Source of the DNA: Alphaproteobacteria bacterium
GTDB lineage: Bacteria; Pseudomonadota; Alphaproteobacteria; Rs-D84
DNA length: 42,903 nucleotides
Assembly (NCBI GenBank): GCA_017554365.1
Contig: JAFZIM010000081.1
Span: forward strand, 1-42,903
Direction: 5' to 3'
The notes under the pieces are model-generated. The model saw only the letters and a list, made by a program, of their open reading frames with translations, made no database searches and had not been told where the DNA came from. This document shows positions 9,259 through 14,408 of the stretch, piece by piece. A program made the translations under genes and the position numbers. Every line of letters starts with the position of its first letter. Within the stretch, counting starts at the first letter, position 1.

Positions 9259-9669
9259 ATGCGAAAAGTAAAAATTATTTTAACTATATTTTTGTTGTAT
9301 GAATTTTTAATTATATCTGTATTGCAAATACCAGCGTATTGCGAAAGTGTGTTTAATAATAATTTTTGTTTAATGGGAAATTATAAATATTGGCTAATGT
9401 GTATAATTTTGCCTGTAAGTGCAGGGTTGTTTATATGGTGGGTGCCTGATATAGCAAAATTATTTTGTAAAAACACATGTGAAATACAAAATAATAAACC
9501 GAATAATGATATAAAAGATATTTTACATGAAATTGTATCAGCAAAAGACATAGAACGTTTGATAACTGCTGCAATTATTATGGGAATTCAGAAATTTGCG
9601 ACAAATCATCCTGAAACCAAAGAAACTTTTGATAATATTCTTGATGTTATAAAGAGGGTAAAACAATAA
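9259..9669 (+). CDS. Hypothetical 2-TM membrane protein
   Basis: ATG at 9259 (MRKVKIILTIFLLYEF...) is preferred over the GTG at 9223. Two hydrophobic helices, then a soluble helical C-terminus. No family recognised. Confidence 0.45.
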   Translation: MRKVKIILTIFLLYEFLIISVLQIPAYCESVFNNNFCLMGNYKYWLMCIILPVSAGLFIWWVPDIAKLFCKNTCEIQNNKPNNDIKDILHEIVSAKDIERLITAAIIMGIQKFATNHPETKETFDNILDVIKRVKQ

Positions 9670-9672
9670 TTC

Positions 9673-9700
9673 TTGACAAAAATATATTTTGTGATATAAA
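9673..9700 (+). promoter_or_regulatory. Near-consensus sigma70 promoter for the HNH-like/radical SAM operon
   Basis: ttgaca(9673-9678), 16-nt spacer ending in tga (extended -10 TGn), then tataaa(9695-9700). Ends 25 nt upstream of the ATG at 9725. Confidence 0.5.
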
Positions 9701-9724
9701 TAAACCAAAGTAAACAAGGTTATT

Positions 9725-10756
9725 ATGTCAGATAAATTTTGTATATTTTGTGGTAAAAAACCGAAAGACAAGAATTTAGAACATGTTATACCCCAATGGT
9801 TGATAAGAATGACCGGGCGTGAACATTCTGATGTTTATTCTTTATACCATGAACACGATAAACATATTTCTTTTTTGCAATTTAAATTTCCTGCATGTAC
9901 AGAATGTAATAGTAAATATGCTGATTTAGAGGGAAAAATAAAGGCAATTATGGAAAAAGTTTTATCAGGGCAATCTGTTAATGGGGCAGAAGCAAATTTA
10001 TTAATGGATTGGTTTGATAAAATTCGTGTTGGTATGTGGTTAACTGCGATGTTTTTTGATAAAAATTTAAAACAAGATATTCAACCTCATTTCTTTATTG
10101 ATTCACGTGTCGTCAAAGAAGACAGAATGTTATCTATTCGTAAAGTATGCGAAACAGATGCTAATAAAGGTATTTATATTGGTGGAACACAAACACCTTT
10201 GTTCACATATTGTCCAAGTGCTTTTACAATGCGAATAAACAATTATTATTTTGTAAATGCATCAACTCATAATTTGGTTTCACCACGAATTGGTTTTCCA
10301 TTTGTATCTAATATGAAAATTAGGGATACAAATGATGGGTCTTTCTTTTGTGATATTATCAACGGCAGGGGAAAATTAGTAAATCCTGTGGTCCCAAGTT
10401 TTATTCCAAACAAAGATTCTATTACTTTCTATCAACCTATATACAAAGATTTTGTTGGTTTTGAAGATTTTACCATAGATGATTATATGATTGAACATTC
10501 TTATGATGTTGCAAATGGTTTGGGTGGGGTTTTCGTTCAGAAAGGTAATGTTGGTAATACAAGATATTTACATGAAACAGATAATGTTTCTACAAAAATC
10601 AAAGTCAGCCCATTACCAGAAATGGAAAAAGATATATGTGAAATACAAAATAAGGTAAGTTCTATATCAAAAATTCAAACCATGGAAACAGAATGTGGAA
10701 TGAAATACAATTCTTTGATTTTGAATGCAATAAAAAACGCGAAAATAAAAGGTTAA
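9725..10756 (+). CDS. HNH-like zinc-finger (putative nuclease) N-terminal domain protein with ~240-aa unassigned C-terminal region
   Basis: C6-x2-C9 ... E19-H20-VIPQWL ... C58-x2-C61-N62 (CIFCG...NLEHVIPQWL...ACTECNSK) matches the CxxC/EHxxP/CxxCN pattern of HNH (HNH_5-type) endonucleases. SD aagg lies upstream. Confidence 0.5.
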   Translation: MSDKFCIFCGKKPKDKNLEHVIPQWLIRMTGREHSDVYSLYHEHDKHISFLQFKFPACTECNSKYADLEGKIKAIMEKVLSGQSVNGAEANLLMDWFDKIRVGMWLTAMFFDKNLKQDIQPHFFIDSRVVKEDRMLSIRKVCETDANKGIYIGGTQTPLFTYCPSAFTMRINNYYFVNASTHNLVSPRIGFPFVSNMKIRDTNDGSFFCDIINGRGKLVNPVVPSFIPNKDSITFYQPIYKDFVGFEDFTIDDYMIEHSYDVANGLGGVFVQKGNVGNTRYLHETDNVSTKIKVSPLPEMEKDICEIQNKVSSISKIQTMETECGMKYNSLILNAIKNAKIKG

Positions 10757-10760
10757 TATA

Positions 10761-11924
10761 ATGTCAGATGGTTTAATACCTGTTTTTCAAAACGAAAGTC
10801 AACCAGAATTAAGTATTAAAGAAAGATTTAAGATGGCTTTCGTGTATCCTTTTTCAAAAAAAATATTTTATAAACAATGGGAAAATACACCTGTTTCTAT
10901 GCGTTTTCGTTTAACAAATAAATGTAATGAAATTTGTCCAAGATGTTTTGAATGTTCTGGGCCAAATAATCCAGCAAATAATATCCCTGTGGAAGATGTT
11001 GCTTTTTATGGCAATGTGGATAATATGCATTATTTTGATACTTTTATGACAGGTGGTGAATGGTCTTTGATTTATGATAAAGAACCACATTATTTACTTA
11101 AAATTTTTAATAAACTCGATTTATCTAAATCAAGCAATTATATTATTCAAACTAATGCTCGTTGGGTTGACGGGCCAAATGCAAAACAAATATTAGACGA
11201 TTTAAAAAAGATTCAATTGAAATTGGGTAAAAGTGGAAAAATATTAAAATTAGATACATCTGTGGATAGATACAGAAGCCAGAAAAGTATTGATGGTGTT
11301 ATAAAATTAATTCGTACAATAGTATTAGACCCTGAATTTAAAAACACAAAGATTCGTATAGCGTCTTGTGCTTTAGATGCAGGAATGGCGAATAAAAAAG
11401 TTTTACGTCCAGAATTTTTTGAACCTTATGGTATTAAATTAAGATTTGAAAATCGCAGTTTACACAATATGTATTTTCAGGTTTGTTATGCAAACGACAG
11501 ACGTATCGTAATCCATGAAGAATCACCAACTATGATGGTTGGACGTGCCAAAGAAAATGGTATTGGATATAAAATATATTATCCGCAAATGCAATGCGAA
11601 GGTTTGCAAAATGGTTATGAATATATGGAATTGGCTTTGCGTGAAGATGGTATGATTAAATGGCACAATTGGTATGATTGGAATATAATGGTTCCTTATA
11701 AAGACAAAAATAATCAAAATAAACCATTAGAACAAATCAAAAAAGAATTAGTAGATATGGCATGGAAACGTGCAATTAAATCTAATATAAAAGATACTTT
11801 GATAAATTTTATACCGATATACGGGCAAATACGTACTATTTATAGAACTAATCAAATGAAAAAAACATTTGATGAAAATCGCAAGAAATTTGTAATTAAG
11901 GCCCAACGAGTAAATTGTATATAA
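10761..11924 (+). CDS. Radical SAM domain protein, subfamily unassigned
   Basis: RLTNKCNEICPRCFECSG carries C55-x3-C59-x2-C62. The SAM-binding GGE motif is at FMTGGEWSL (G98-G99-E100). No SPASM/twitch Cys cluster at the C-terminus. Starts 4 nt after the upstream gene. Confidence 0.7.
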   Translation: MSDGLIPVFQNESQPELSIKERFKMAFVYPFSKKIFYKQWENTPVSMRFRLTNKCNEICPRCFECSGPNNPANNIPVEDVAFYGNVDNMHYFDTFMTGGEWSLIYDKEPHYLLKIFNKLDLSKSSNYIIQTNARWVDGPNAKQILDDLKKIQLKLGKSGKILKLDTSVDRYRSQKSIDGVIKLIRTIVLDPEFKNTKIRIASCALDAGMANKKVLRPEFFEPYGIKLRFENRSLHNMYFQVCYANDRRIVIHEESPTMMVGRAKENGIGYKIYYPQMQCEGLQNGYEYMELALREDGMIKWHNWYDWNIMVPYKDKNNQNKPLEQIKKELVDMAWKRAIKSNIKDTLINFIPIYGQIRTIYRTNQMKKTFDENRKKFVIKAQRVNCI

Positions 11925-11953
11925 AAAAACGCACCATTTGGTGCGTTTTAATT
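11925..11953 (+). terminator. Rho-independent terminator after the radical SAM gene
   Basis: Stem acgcacc(11929-11935)/ggtgcgt(11940-11946), loop attt, then tttaattt. Abuts the tRNA-Thr 3' end. Confidence 0.8.
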
Positions 11954-11955
11954 TC

Positions 11956-12031
11956 TGGTGCCGGTTGTCGGACTTGAACCAACGACCCTCTGATTACAAA
12001 TCAGATGCTCTACCAGCTGAGCTAAACCGGC
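11956..12031 (-). tRNA. tRNA-Thr (anticodon TGT)
   Basis: Reverse complement gccggtttagctcagctggtagagcatctgatttgtaatcagagggtcgttggttcaagtccgacaaccggcacca folds as a 76-nt cloverleaf. Anticodon arm tctga-ttTGTaa-tcaga; encoded CCA. Confidence 0.9.
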
Positions 12032-12096: not shown

Positions 12097-12681
12097 TTAA
12101 TGAATTTCTAAATTTTCTATGTTTTCCATTACTATTTGTGCCAAATACATATCTTTTGTTCTTTTATACAAATTTTCATAATCTGGTTTTGACGATAATG
12201 GAATACCAAGATGGTTTTGTAATGAAAGTATTGGTTCATATCTTTGAAAACCATATTTTTTTGTTTTTTGGTTATAACCAATAGCATAAAATTTATCGTC
12301 AAAGCCTTTTGCTATGTAGGTTTCAAAATCATTAACCATTACAAAAGAAACATCTGCGTATGGAATAATGCTATGGAATATTTTTGTAATATTTTGTTCT
12401 TGTGAAGCTATTATGTTGTAAATTTGGTTTTGAAATTCTACCCAATTATAAACCAATTCAAACTTTGGTTTGTTTTCTGGCTTGAAACCATATTGTTGTA
12501 ATGTGTTTTGAAAATCTGGATGTAAAAACATATAGTATTCTTCGGTAAAGCCATTGTATTTGATACTAAACAAAACGTCTTGGGGATTAAAAATAAAATA
12601 TTGTCTAGATTCTGGGTCGTATTTTACGCCAGATACTTGTATTATATTGCGGTATAAATCATTGATGTTCATTTGTCCCAT
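12097..12681 (-). CDS. Hypothetical protein (194 aa)
   Basis: Balanced soluble-protein composition. Strong SD (aaggaaa) 8-14 nt upstream of the ATG, embedded in the end of the upstream ORF. No motif recognised. Confidence 0.5.
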   Translation of the reverse strand: MGQMNINDLYRNIIQVSGVKYDPESRQYFIFNPQDVLFSIKYNGFTEEYYMFLHPDFQNTLQQYGFKPENKPKFELVYNWVEFQNQIYNIIASQEQNITKIFHSIIPYADVSFVMVNDFETYIAKGFDDKFYAIGYNQKTKKYGFQRYEPILSLQNHLGIPLSSKPDYENLYKRTKDMYLAQIVMENIENLEIH

Positions 12682-12683
12682 GA

Positions 12684-13052
12684 TTAACGTTTCCTTGTAT
12701 AATTATCATGTAAAAATTTTGATGCCTTTAATTCTTGTTCGTTCATTGTCGAATTACATATTCCGTTCTGTTCTGAAAATTTCAGTGCCAATTTTGATGA
12801 TATTTGCCAAATATCATAATTGTTATCAAATTGTTCTTCTGTTCTGGCGAAATGATTTATGCATGTGCTATACTTTTTTCCAATTTTTAATGTGGCACGT
12901 GGAAAATCTGTATCAAAAACCTCGACAGATAAAATGCATTTACCTTTTTTATTACATAATTTATATACATAATGTATGTCAGAAAATTCAATTTCTTTCA
13001 CGAAATTATGTCTGATGTGGTATAAGATATCTTGTTTTAAATCTGGGTTCAT
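12684..13052 (-). CDS. Hypothetical protein (122 aa)
   Basis: ORF ends 2 nt before the next minus-strand ORF. No obvious SD and no motif recognised. Confidence 0.4.
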   Translation of the reverse strand: MNPDLKQDILYHIRHNFVKEIEFSDIHYVYKLCNKKGKCILSVEVFDTDFPRATLKIGKKYSTCINHFARTEEQFDNNYDIWQISSKLALKFSEQNGICNSTMNEQELKASKFLHDNYTRKR

Positions 13053-13163: not shown

Positions 13164-14408
13164 ATGATTAAATTGCCTGAATTACTTGCACCTGGTGGAA
13201 CATTAGACGCATTTAAGACCGCTATTTTATATGGGGCAGATGCGATTTATGCTGGATTGCCTGGCTTTTCTATGCGTGCAAGGGCCAAGATTAGTGTTGA
13301 TGAAGTAAAGCAGGGTATAGATTTCGCCCACGAACATGGAAAAAAGGTTTATTTAGCGTTTAATTTGTTCGCGCATGACCGCGATTATGACAATATGGGT
13401 CGTGTATCCGAAGTAATTAATTATTTGCGTCCTGACGCGTTAATTGTGTCTGATGCGGGTGTTATTATGTGGTTGAAAGAAAATCATCCTGATATTCCAA
13501 TTCACATATCTACCCAGGCAAATATTTGTTCTGCGGCCAGTGTTAAATTTTGGCAAAATGTCGGTGCAGTTCAATGTGTTTTAGCACGTGAAGTTTCACA
13601 CAAAGAATTTGAATCTATACGTGAACAATGTCCTGATATAGGATTGGAAATATTCATACATGGTGCAATGTGTATGTCTTATTCTGGTCGTTGTTTATTA
13701 TCTAATTTTATCACAGGGCGTCCATCAAATCGTGGTGCATGCGCGCAATTGTGCCGTTGGAAATACGATGTTATTTTGCGTGAAAAAGAAAGTGGTATTG
13801 AAATGCCTTTGGAAGAAGATGAACGTGGTGCGTATATCATGAATTCCAAAGATTTATGTTTAATGCCAAGATTAAAAGAAGTCATAGAATCAAGACCTGA
13901 TTCATTGAAAATCGAAGGTCGTAATCGCAGTGAATATTATGTTGGTTCTGTTGTTCGTGCATATCGTAATGCATTGGATGCTTATGCCAAAGACCCAGAA
14001 CATTTTGATCCAACACCTTTTATGAATGATTTAAATGTGTTGGAATCACGTGGTTATACAACGGCTTTCTTTGATGGGCCATTACCACCAGATGCGCATG
14101 ATTATGAATCTACACATTCTACATCCGATTTTCAGGCAGCAGGTGTAATTACAGAAGTTAATGATACAAATATCACACTTGAATTACGTAATGAAATAAA
14201 ACAGGGTGATGAAATAACATTTATTTTGCCACGTACACAAAACAAAGTTTCAGTTGTATTGGATAAAATCATAAATGCTAAAAATGGTGAAGAATTACCT
14301 AAAATGTCAGCAGGTCAGAAGAATTCTTTGCTTGTCCCAATTGAAAAGATACCAGAACAAGAACGTGAAAAATTTGTTCCATTGGTATTGGCGTATAAAC
14401 ATAAATAA
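13164..14408 (+). CDS. Peptidase U32 family protein (YegQ/RlhA/TrhP-like)
   Basis: N-terminus ELLAPGGTLDAFKTAILYGADAIYAGLPGFSMRARA and the core IHGAMCMSYSGRCLLSNF...CAQLCRW are characteristic of U32 proteins. Confidence 0.85.
   Translation: MIKLPELLAPGGTLDAFKTAILYGADAIYAGLPGFSMRARAKISVDEVKQGIDFAHEHGKKVYLAFNLFAHDRDYDNMGRVSEVINYLRPDALIVSDAGVIMWLKENHPDIPIHISTQANICSAASVKFWQNVGAVQCVLAREVSHKEFESIREQCPDIGLEIFIHGAMCMSYSGRCLLSNFITGRPSNRGACAQLCRWKYDVILREKESGIEMPLEEDERGAYIMNSKDLCLMPRLKEVIESRPDSLKIEGRNRSEYYVGSVVRAYRNALDAYAKDPEHFDPTPFMNDLNVLESRGYTTAFFDGPLPPDAHDYESTHSTSDFQAAGVITEVNDTNITLELRNEIKQGDEITFILPRTQNKVSVVLDKIINAKNGEELPKMSAGQKNSLLVPIEKIPEQEREKFVPLVLAYKHK

What the first reader, a model, noticed from the sequence alone, without database searches (positions are those of the whole stretch)
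9673..11953. Self-contained operon: HNH-like Zn-finger protein plus unassigned radical SAM enzyme, wedged against the 3' end of tRNA-Thr
The unit has its own near-consensus promoter (TTGACA, 16 nt, TGn-TATAAA), a 4-nt intergenic gap and a strong terminator that abuts the tRNA-Thr 3' end. That position is the classic landing side for acquired DNA. Gene 1 shows C6xxC9 / E19-H20-VIPQWL / C58xxC61-N62, an HNH-nuclease-type zinc finger, followed by ~240 residues I cannot assign. Gene 2 has a bona fide radical SAM core (C55x3C59x2C62, G98-G99-E100). It has no SPASM/twitch cluster, and I see no resemblance to HemN, QueE, MoaA, viperin or other subfamilies. I know of no described system pairing these two proteins. 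A nuclease-like protein with a radical SAM enzyme in an accessory position is the architecture expected of a nucleic-acid- or nucleotide-modifying conflict system, by analogy with prokaryotic viperins. That functional idea is inference only. The upstream 2-TM gene (9259-9669) may or may not belong to the unit.
Basis: partly seen in the sequence, partly recalled or inferred. Interest (0 to 1): 0.72.

Follow-up and report, generated by a model that had tools for sequence, protein, structure and literature searches.

The report
Two separable genes beside tRNA-Thr
The two genes are real and are transcribed together here, but across related gut bacteria they come and go independently, so they look like a mobile fast-evolving nuclease-like gene parked next to an uncharacterised radical SAM enzyme related to peptide epimerases, not like a new two-part defence system.

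Summary
Two co-directional ORFs (9725-10756, 10761-11924) lie 4 nt apart. A TTGACA-16-TGnTATAAA promoter precedes them and a hairpin abutting tRNA-Thr(UGU) follows.

Gene 1 carries an invariant CxxC/EH/CxxCN motif with sub-threshold Pfam HNH_5 matches. Its roughly 280-residue C-terminal part has no fold match in PDB or BFVD. Gene 2 is a radical SAM enzyme: CX3CX2C and GGE are conserved, and the closest fold and profile match is the peptide epimerase YydG/EpeE. It lacks auxiliary-cluster cysteines.

The window comes from Candidatus Enterousia, a gut alphaproteobacterium with a reduced genome. The stretch between cvpA/2TM and tRNA-Thr is a variable slot holding gene 1+2, gene 1 only, gene 2 only, or other cargo.

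- In the second-closest syntenic relative, gene 1's stop runs straight into the same hairpin and tRNA, with no gene 2.
- Gene 1 relatives sit alone on plasmids, ICEs, prophages and in defence-like islands of other phyla, and diverge far faster than their neighbours.
- Gene 2 is confined to this clade, is absent from the mobile-element collections searched, and usually stands alone with its own strong promoter.

An obligate two-gene conflict system is not supported. Repeated juxtaposition with HNH_5-type genes keeps a looser link possible (about 0.2).

The parts
9673..9700 (+). Sigma-70 promoter with extended -10: TTGACA, 16 nt, TGaTATAAA
   Evidence: Sequence read. The motif TTGACA-N9-12-TTGTR-N-TA occurs only once in the window. 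It is conserved upstream of gene 1 in L040, L051 and L055, and the same architecture precedes stand-alone gene 2 in most relatives.
9725..10756 (+). Gene 1: 343-aa protein with an N-terminal HNH_5-type His-Me finger (C6xxC9, E19-H20, C58xxC61-N62) and a roughly 280-aa C-terminal domain of unknown fold
   Evidence: ORF. Pfam HNH_5 E = 0.002, below cutoff; 21 of 53 homologs hit HNH_5. Invariant motif residues. AF2 pLDDT 89, pTM 0.90. No PDB or BFVD fold match. No PADLOC, NCBIfam or PHROG hit.
10761..11924 (+). Gene 2: 387-aa radical SAM enzyme of an uncharacterised YydG/EpeE-related family, with no auxiliary-cluster cysteines
   Evidence: C55/C59/C62 invariant; GGE 98-100. AF2 pLDDT 89. Foldseek top hit EpeE at E = 3e-10, then SkfB, SuiB and anSME. 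The wider-family profile hits YydG at E = 5e-16. Only C65 and C279 are additionally conserved.
11926..11949 (.). Bidirectional intrinsic terminator hairpin shared by the operon and tRNA-Thr
   Evidence: The same hairpin follows gene 1 in L051/L052 and gene 2 in L040, L055 and L001.
11956..12031 (-). tRNA-Thr(UGU), the conserved right-hand anchor of the variable slot
   Evidence: ARAGORN and Rfam at 73 bits. It lies next to the U32 gene in L007-L009, L011, L022, L040, L043 and L051.
9259..9669 (+). 2TM protein gene: the left-hand anchor of the slot, syntenic with cvpA, not part of the unit
   Evidence: Homologs follow cvpA in L040, L043, L051 and L019 and precede gene 2 in L001/L034.

Best explanation
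The region is the edge of a variable gene slot at the 3' end of tRNA-Thr(UGU) in a reduced-genome gut alphaproteobacterium (Candidatus Enterousia, order Rs-D84). In this lineage the slot holds two functionally independent genes, which are co-transcribed from one strong extended -10 promoter and end at the tRNA's bidirectional terminator.

Gene 1 belongs to a widespread, fast-evolving family carried on mobile elements. Its N-terminus is a zinc-stabilised His-Me (HNH_5-type) finger. By inference, H20 acts as general base and N62 as metal ligand. The large C-terminal domain, of unknown fold, would provide target recognition or control. The protein most likely acts alone as a nuclease in phage or mobile-element conflict.

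Gene 2 is a clade-restricted, largely vertically inherited radical SAM enzyme from an uncharacterised sister family of the YydG/EpeE peptide epimerases. By inference, it binds a [4Fe-4S] cluster through C55/C59/C62, cleaves SAM to a 5'-deoxyadenosyl radical, and abstracts a hydrogen atom from a peptide or protein substrate. It has no auxiliary cluster. The co-conserved C65/C279 pair is a candidate hydrogen donor or redox pair. It works as a stand-alone enzyme on a cellular substrate that is not encoded next to it.

What is shown: the gene structures, the motifs, the fold relationships, the distribution and the synteny. What is inferred: the catalytic roles, the substrates and the biological function.
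For: Organism and slot:
- NCBI names the proteins from an Alphaproteobacteria MAG, and relatives are Ca. Enterousia.
- These genomes are 0.75-1.0 Mb (PMC12306168).
- The cvpA-2TM ... hairpin-tRNA-Thr-U32 frame is conserved.
- Slot content differs between relatives. It holds G1+G2 in the window, L040 and L055. It holds G1 only in L051/52 and L043/44. It holds G2 only in L001/34 and L022. In L007-L011 it holds longer cargo.

Independence of the two genes:
- L051 shares U32 at 96% and cvpA at 87% with the window. It lacks G2, and its G1 stop codon is followed directly by the same hairpin.
- No G2 homolog of 66-84% identity exists in the 5.8-billion-protein collection.
- G1 identity falls to 36-48% where G2 stays at 60-78%.

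Gene 1 on mobile elements:
- Relatives are on plasmids and an ICE, next to HEPN-NTase and an R-M system.
- In Pseudomonas the neighbour is a SIR2_2 giant gene.
- In L053 the neighbour is an R-M cluster.
- Fourteen IMG/VR contigs hold relatives, including a position beside tail fibre and baseplate genes.

Gene 2:
- No match in phages, plasmids or IMG/VR.
- It usually has its own TTGACA / extended -10 promoter.
- Wider-family relatives sit among housekeeping genes: bamD, era, queA, tgt.
- The fold and profile both point to YydG/EpeE.
Against: - G1-G2 is a tight operon in three lineages down to about 65% identity.
- L007 has a diverged G1, a 254-aa ORF and G2 with overlapping stop and start codons.
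- A second HNH_5 family (c59) lies 112-115 nt downstream of G2 in L011 and L020 and 335 nt upstream in L019.
- Overall, an HNH_5-type gene is within about 2.5 kb of G2 in roughly 9 of about 36 loci. That is more than an arbitrary pair of genes would show, although a shared insertion hotspot could explain it.
- No substrate, partner or precursor peptide for G2 was identified.
- G1's HNH assignment rests on a sub-threshold profile match and a motif, and Foldseek did not recover an HNH structure.
- I could not measure how many Enterousia genomes lack G2, because there was no denominator.
Confidence: 0.6

Rival explanations
1. One reading: gene 1 and gene 2 (in some relatives with an extra gene) form a cooperating nuclease plus radical SAM conflict system. 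For example, the radical SAM enzyme would make a modified nucleotide or nucleic acid, or a signal, that is coupled to HNH cleavage.
For: - The operon has 4-14-nt gaps in the window, L040 and L055.
- L007 has overlapping G1-X254-G2.
- Two or three different HNH_5 families are found beside G2, in both orders.
- The location is a tRNA-linked variable slot with an integrase in L001.
- G1 relatives lie in defence-like neighbourhoods.
Against: - About three quarters of G2 loci have no HNH_5 gene nearby.
- G1 is alone in the close relative L051 and in all other phyla.
- G2 is never found on plasmids, phages or viral contigs.
- The two genes have different evolutionary rates.
- G2 usually has its own promoter.
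- There is no PADLOC hit for either protein.
- The nearest relatives of G2 modify peptides, not nucleotides.
Confidence: 0.2
2. Gene 2 is a RiPP-type maturase like YydG/EpeE. Its substrate would be a nearby small protein, either the 2TM protein or an unannotated peptide, yielding a modified and possibly membrane-active product.
For: - YydG/EpeE is the closest relative by fold and by profile.
- The 2TM gene lies directly upstream of G2 in L001/L034 and upstream of the operon here.
Against: - The 2TM gene follows cvpA whether or not G2 is present (L043, L051, L019).
- No protease or ABC exporter genes like epeP/epeAB are nearby.
- No conserved small ORF accompanies G2 across its many contexts.
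- The auxiliary-cluster cysteines of EpeE are missing (EpeE features from PMC13012085).
Confidence: 0.12
3. Gene 2 is a housekeeping RNA- or cofactor-modifying radical SAM enzyme. For example, it could be linked to tRNA modification, and its position next to tRNA-Thr(UGU) and the U32 (TrhP-like) gene would reflect function rather than an insertion hotspot.
For: - It shows steady, vertical-looking divergence and a strong promoter.
- Wider-family members lie near queA and tgt.
- A distant archaeal relative lies 24 nt after a U32 gene.
- The U32 gene is the fixed neighbour of tRNA-Thr(UGU).
Against: - G2 is missing from the close relative L051 and from the L043 slot.
- Its genomic context varies widely.
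- The family is restricted to one clade.
- Its fold neighbours are peptide-modifying enzymes.
- The U32, queA and tgt links are each one or two observations.
Confidence: 0.08

Closest known systems
YydG/EpeE radical SAM peptide epimerase (Bacillus subtilis epeXEPAB; PDB 8ai1-8ai6; NCBIfam TIGR04078)
   Same: It is the best fold match to the gene 2 model (E = 3e-10, TM 0.45-0.55). It is also the best PDB sequence match of the wider-family profile (E = 5e-16 over about 170 residues). Shared motifs are CNxxCxxC, TGGE, (T/S)N(A/G)xW and S(V/L)DxxH. TIGR04078 is the top or near-top NCBIfam hit for most of the wider-family members tested.
   Different: Gene 2 itself gives no TIGR04078 hit at E <= 1, and the best score among relatives is 36 bits against a cutoff of 300. 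EpeE has an auxiliary [4Fe-4S] cluster in an extended twitch domain and a catalytic Cys223 (PMC13012085). Gene 2 conserves only two extra cysteines. It has no precursor peptide, protease or ABC transporter genes beside it. It also has about 40 extra N-terminal and about 60 extra C-terminal helical residues.
Other SPASM/twitch peptide-modifying radical SAM enzymes (SkfB, SuiB, anSME)
   Same: They are the next-best fold matches (E = 3e-5 to 5e-4). SkfB is the best single-family sequence hit of the gene-2 profile (E = 7e-5).
   Different: The similarity is confined to the radical SAM core. The seven-cysteine SPASM motif is absent, and no RRE-like domain is evident in the model.
HNH_5 (PF14279) His-Me finger endonucleases
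   Same: Gene 1 has the pattern CxxC ... EH(V/I)(I/L)P ... CxxCN, with all motif residues invariant. HNH_5 is the only Pfam family recovered, in 21 of 53 members. The predicted strand, strand and helix run in the right order around H20 and N62.
   Different: All scores are below the Pfam gathering threshold. A variable insert of about 30 residues splits the finger. About 280 further residues have no recognisable relative in PDB, BFVD, Pfam, NCBIfam, PHROGs or PADLOC.
Prokaryotic viperins and other radical SAM defence systems (pVips; Ophion)
   Same: They share a radical SAM core. The gene lies in a variable island next to a nuclease-like gene.
   Different: Gene 2 gives no hit to the NCBIfam prokaryotic viperin model. 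PDB viperins match only the cluster motif, at E = 0.2-0.4, and are not among the top 50 fold matches. Gene 2 is not on mobile elements. Ophion pairs a radical SAM enzyme with PHP and PRTase proteins, not with an HNH protein (bioRxiv 10.1101/2025.09.30.679545).

Membership tests
Radical SAM superfamily | CX3CX2C motif ligating the [4Fe-4S] cluster | tested here: met
   C55, C59 and C62 are invariant in 37 homologs and in 18 wider-family sequences.
Radical SAM superfamily | GGE SAM-binding motif and partial TIM-barrel fold | tested here: met
   G98-G99-E100 are at least 90% conserved. The AF2 model (pLDDT 89) matches radical SAM structures at probability 1.0.
Radical SAM superfamily | Pfam PF04055 above the gathering score | tested here: not met
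   The window protein gives no hit. Four of 37 homologs hit weakly (best E = 8e-4). Several wider-family members score near the cutoff, and three of them reach it.
YydG/EpeE peptide epimerases (TIGR04078) | Score above the NCBIfam equivalog cutoff (300 bits) | tested here: not met
   Gene 2 gives no hit at E <= 1. Wider-family members score 22-36 bits.
YydG/EpeE peptide epimerases (TIGR04078) | Auxiliary [4Fe-4S] cluster in a twitch-type C-terminal domain | tested here: not met
   Beyond the CX3CX2C motif, only C65 and C279 are at least 97% conserved. EpeE features are taken from PMC13012085.
YydG/EpeE peptide epimerases (TIGR04078) | Operon with a precursor peptide, a protease and an ABC exporter | tested here: not met
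   Neighbours differ from locus to locus and none is of these kinds.
YydG/EpeE peptide epimerases (TIGR04078) | Epimerisation of Val/Ile C-alpha in a peptide | not testable with these tools
   This needs biochemistry.
HNH_5 / His-Me finger nucleases | Pfam PF14279 above the gathering score (27.5 bits) | tested here: not met
   The score is 18.4 bits, E = 0.002, covering profile positions 1-21 only. The best E-value among 53 homologs is 5.5e-4.
HNH_5 / His-Me finger nucleases | Two CxxC zinc ligand pairs, a catalytic His after the first strand, and Asn/His at the start of the helix | tested here: met
   C6, C9, H20, C58, C61 and N62 are invariant.
HNH_5 / His-Me finger nucleases | Beta-beta-alpha-metal fold recovered by structure comparison | tested here: inconclusive
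   The whole-protein Foldseek search gave no significant hit in PDB or BFVD. The small finger was not searched on its own.
HNH_5 / His-Me finger nucleases | Metal-dependent nuclease activity | not testable with these tools
   This needs biochemistry.
Prokaryotic viperins | Match to the viperin family model or fold | tested here: not met
   There is no NF038283 hit. PDB viperins match at E = 0.2-0.4 on the cluster motif only. They are absent from the top fold matches.
Known anti-phage defence systems (PADLOC-DB 2.0) | Match to any defence protein model | tested here: not met
   Neither gene 1 nor gene 2 gives a hit at E <= 1.

The most novel reading that the evidence does not exclude
Two novel readings remain open. 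First, gene 1's family could be an undescribed single-gene anti-phage or anti-plasmid nuclease with a sensor domain of new fold. Second, its repeated juxtaposition with gene 2 in Enterousia could reflect a real functional module in which a YydG-like radical SAM enzyme without an auxiliary cluster cooperates with HNH_5 nucleases. The juxtapositions are the G1-G2 operon, the G1-X254-G2 operon and G2 next to c59. That would be a new class of radical SAM-based conflict system.
Probability: 0.15. Interest if true: 0.75.

Novelty: new variant of a known kind. Interest (0 to 1): 0.4.

Why it matters
As a two-gene system the finding mostly dissolves, but each gene is a useful lead.

**Gene 1.** It represents a widespread family carried by plasmids, ICEs and prophages. 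None of the libraries tried here annotates it. It is confidently predicted, yet has no structural relative outside a small HNH-type finger. That makes it a reasonable candidate for a new single-gene defence or addiction nuclease.

**Gene 2.** It defines an uncharacterised sister family of the YydG/EpeE epimerases that has lost the auxiliary iron-sulfur cluster. It is retained with a strong promoter in gut symbionts with genomes under 1 Mb. Finding its substrate would show what a "twitch-less" YydG-like enzyme does, and why such small genomes keep it.

**The slot.** It is also a clear natural example of presence/absence variation at a tRNA-linked hotspot.

Tried and rejected
- **Direct repeats or att sites flanking gene 2.** The window holds no second copy of the tRNA 3' end. 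An apparent 11-nt repeat (ATAAAAAACGC) at the 3' ends of gene 1 and gene 2 is not conserved in L040 or L055, so I treat it as chance.
- **Base composition.** There is no distinct GC signature: the unit is 0.29-0.30 GC in a window ranging from 0.25 to 0.39.
- **RNA elements.** Rfam finds nothing except the tRNA.
- **Fold of gene 1.** Foldseek against PDB and BFVD gave only noise. A profile search against PDB sequences returned nothing.
- **Homology between gene 1 and the second HNH_5 family (c59).** Similarity is limited to the 21-residue finger.
- **Contexts of wider-family radical SAM relatives.** Only two could be looked up directly, and neither gave a clear functional lead; one had a U32 gene immediately upstream. 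The metagenome scan gave housekeeping neighbourhoods with no conserved partner.
- **Third homology search.** Run with the wider alignment, it added almost no new proteins.
- **Neighbours.** The ORFs between and around the genes in relatives (X254, c16, c29, c31, the 116/102-aa ORFs, d194, d122) have no informative family hits.
- **Viperin-like reading of gene 2.** Rejected.
- **2TM gene as a member of the unit.** Rejected, because it tracks cvpA.
Full report
**1. Observation**

- ORFs 9725-10756 (343 aa, gene 1 or G1) and 10761-11924 (387 aa, gene 2 or G2) are co-directional and 4 nt apart.
- Upstream lies TTGACA (9673), a 16-nt spacer, then TG-A-TATAAA, followed by an AAGG ribosome-binding site.
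- Downstream lies a 10-bp G+C-rich hairpin at 11926-11949 (-14.7 kcal/mol, z = -4.0). It ends 6 nt before the 3' end of tRNA-Thr(UGU), at 11956-12031 on the minus strand.
- The hairpin has an A-run on one side and a T-run on the other, and it scores as a terminator on both strands.

**2. What the proteins are**

*Gene 1*
- The only family signal is Pfam HNH_5 (E = 0.002, 18 bits against a cutoff of 27.5), covering residues 6-24.
- Twenty-one of 53 homologs give the same sub-threshold hit and nothing else.
- C6, C9, E19, H20, P23, W25, L26, C58, C61 and N62 are invariant across homologs as low as 28% identity.
- An AF2 model (pLDDT 89, pTM 0.90) places E19-H20 on a strand and C58xxC61-N62 at the start of a long helix. 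That is the order expected of a His-Me finger.
- The remaining roughly 280 residues are well predicted but match nothing. This holds for PDB by fold, PDB by profile and BFVD by fold. It also holds for NCBIfam, PADLOC and PHROGs.

*Gene 2*
- It has no Pfam hit, but C55/C59/C62 are invariant and GGE 98-100 is conserved.
- The AF2 model (pLDDT 89) matches radical SAM structures. EpeE/YydG is first (E = 3e-10, TM 0.45-0.55), followed by SkfB, SuiB, anSME, SpeY and BlsE.
- An exhaustive profile search found only 155 relatives at E <= 1e-3 among 1.84 billion representatives.
- The nearer of these (316-362 aa) carry weak Radical_SAM hits, and TIGR04078 (YydG) is the top or near-top NCBIfam hit for most of them, far below its cutoff.
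- A profile of this wider family hits YydG in the PDB at E = 5e-16 over about 170 residues, with shared motifs.
- EpeE has an auxiliary [4Fe-4S] cluster in an extended twitch domain and a catalytic Cys223 (PMC13012085).
- Outside the CX3CX2C motif, the G2 family conserves only C65 and C279. The single homolog lacking one also lacks the other.
- G2 is therefore a YydG-related enzyme, but it is not a member of the YydG family and it is not a viperin.

**3. Organism and genomic frame**

Source names and GTDB titles place the window and its relatives in Alphaproteobacteria MAGs of Candidatus Enterousia, order Rs-D84. These are gut bacteria with genomes of about 0.75-1.0 Mb (PMC12306168).

Across relatives the frame grx-cvpA-2TM ... 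hairpin-tRNA-Thr(UGU)-(two small ORFs)-U32 peptidase is conserved, but the content between 2TM and the hairpin varies:

| Locus | Slot content | Notes |
|---|---|---|
| Window, L040 | G1+G2 | L040 G1 83%, G2 85% identical to the window |
| L055 | G1+G2, 14-nt gap | G1 66%, G2 64%; same promoter type, hairpin and tRNA |
| L051/L052 | G1 only | Nearly as close to the window as L040 (U32 96%, cvpA 87%, 2TM 80%); the TAA stop of G1 runs directly into the same hairpin and tRNA |
| L043/L044 | G1 only | |
| L001/L034 | 2TM-G2-hairpin | Followed by only the 3' half of tRNA-Thr and an integrase, i.e. the att site of an integrated element |
| L007-L011, L022 | G2 plus other cargo | G2 lies 0.8-9 kb from the tRNA |

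The hairpin belongs to the tRNA frame rather than to the unit.

**4. Are the two genes a pair?**

*Evidence that they are separable*
- G2 relatives were found in 33 GTDB species. Only four of them have a G1 homolog within 10 kb: L007, L010, L017 (opposite strand) and L019 (5.4 kb away).
- G2 otherwise sits in many contexts: after a PLD-like gene in five species, beside nrdDG, beside licD genes, or after HU-2TM.
- G2 usually has its own promoter. The motif TTGACA-N9-11-TTGTR-N-TA occurs 40 times in 705 kb of these loci, and 29 of those lie 12-32 nt upstream of a G1 or G2 start. It occurs once in the window.
- G1 relatives occur without G2 in several other settings:
  - in Pseudomonas, next to a SIR2_2 gene;
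  - on a Vibrio plasmid among ICE-type conjugation genes;
  - on an Agrobacterium plasmid, between a HEPN-nucleotidyltransferase and an R-M system;
  - on Legionella plasmids;
  - beside an R-M cluster in L053;
  - in 14 IMG/VR contigs, one of them next to tail fibre and baseplate genes.
- G2 has no match in phage, plasmid or IMG/VR collections.
- The rates of divergence differ. Among L007, L010, L017 and L019, G2 is 72-78% identical but G1 only 41-48%, apart from one pair at 70%. In L051, G1 is 61% identical to the window where U32 is 96%.
- No G2 homolog of 66-84% identity exists in the large protein collection. The L051 lineage therefore most likely lacks G2 altogether (inference).

*Evidence pointing the other way*
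- The tight G1-G2 operon persists in three lineages.
- L007 has G1-X254-G2 with overlapping stop and start codons.
- A different, bona fide HNH_5 family (c59; Pfam E = 1e-11) lies just downstream of G2 in L011 and L020 and just upstream in L019.

I attribute this mainly to a shared hotspot. A conserved TTATTCGCATCACA segment directly after the G2 stop marks where many loci diverge. I cannot exclude a functional link and give it about 0.2.

**5. Mechanism (inferred)**

*Gene 1.* It is a zinc-stabilised His-Me finger nuclease, with H20 as general base and N62 as metal ligand. The C-terminal domain, whose fold matches nothing in PDB or BFVD, would control specificity or activation. Its distribution, rapid divergence and neighbourhoods fit a stand-alone conflict gene, meaning defence or addiction.

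*Gene 2.* It would carry out reductive SAM cleavage at the C55/C59/C62 cluster and hydrogen abstraction from a peptide or protein substrate, by analogy with YydG/EpeE. It has no auxiliary cluster. C279, paired with C65, is a candidate hydrogen donor.

The following point to a stand-alone cellular enzyme rather than a defence component:
- its confinement to one clade;
- its steady divergence;
- its strong promoter;
- its apparently leaderless starts when it stands alone;
- its absence from mobile elements;
- the housekeeping neighbourhoods of wider-family relatives (bamD, era, queA, tgt).

It is nevertheless dispensable in some lineages. No substrate was identified.

**6. Comparison, novelty and verdict**

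No library or paper I could search describes an HNH plus radical SAM pair as a system. Known radical SAM defence systems are viperins and Ophion, which combines a radical SAM enzyme with PHP and PRTase proteins.

The finding is best described as two uncharacterised variants of known superfamilies, juxtaposed in a tRNA-linked variable slot.

- Interest is moderate, at 0.4. Neither gene is surprising in kind, but both are clean leads.
- The most novel reading not excluded is a radical SAM/HNH_5 module or a new single-gene defence nuclease. I give it a probability of 0.15.

Noticed in passing
window 9673-9696; L001, L005, L008, L014, L022 upstream of gene 2: A full-consensus promoter (TTGACA-N9-11-TTGTR-N-TA) is rare in these genomes: 40 copies in 705 kb and one in the window. 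It precedes gene 1 or gene 2 in 29 cases. Stand-alone gene 2 starts about 7-9 nt after the -10 hexamer with no Shine-Dalgarno sequence, which suggests leaderless, strongly expressed mRNAs.
   Followed up: partly
L001 9170-9700 (also L002, L003, L034): Gene 2 is followed by the same terminator hairpin, then only the 3' half of tRNA-Thr, then a phage-type integrase and cargo. This is the att junction of an element integrated into tRNA-Thr.
   Followed up: partly
L017 4519-5568: A 349-aa paralog from the wider YydG-like family lies directly upstream of gene 2. It is about 26% identical to gene 2 over the aligned part. The two subfamilies therefore coexist in one genome.
   Followed up: no
L020 4038-5267; L011; L019: A second, unrelated HNH_5 protein family (403-410 aa; Pfam HNH_5 E = 1e-11) sits 112-115 nt downstream of gene 2 in L011 and L020, and 335 nt upstream of it in L019.
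   Followed up: partly
L007 8158-11170: This is a three-gene arrangement: gene 1 (40% identity), a 254-aa ORF with no family hit, and gene 2, with overlapping stop and start codons.
   Followed up: partly
L008, L010-L012, L015, L016, L018-L021, directly after the gene 2 stop: A conserved segment TTATTCGCATCACA, often followed by a second GCATCACAG, lies directly after the gene 2 stop. Beyond it the loci diverge. It may be a recombination or insertion site.
   Followed up: no
window 13164-14408 and 11956-12031: The U32-family gene (PF01136 + PF16325) is the fixed neighbour of tRNA-Thr(UGU) across the genus. A distant archaeal relative of gene 2 lies 24 nt downstream of a U32 gene. From general knowledge, U32 proteins include tRNA ho5U34 hydroxylases. 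No link to gene 2 was established.
   Followed up: no
window 12097-13052 (minus strand): Two small ORFs (194 and 122 aa) between tRNA-Thr and U32 have no family assignment. The only signal is a weak hit of the first to an ICE protein model (E = 0.009). They are conserved in L040 and L051 at 74-91% identity.
   Followed up: no
alignment A1, positions 65 and 279 of gene 2: P0068 is the only homolog lacking C65 and also the only one lacking C279. This hints that the two cysteines act together.
   Followed up: no
L043 13938-15515; L053 1172-5446: Relatives carry a Cas9-like gene (L043) and an AlwI/Mrr/methyltransferase cluster (L053) within a few kb of their gene 1 homologs. These small genomes therefore do keep defence genes near this family.
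   Followed up: no
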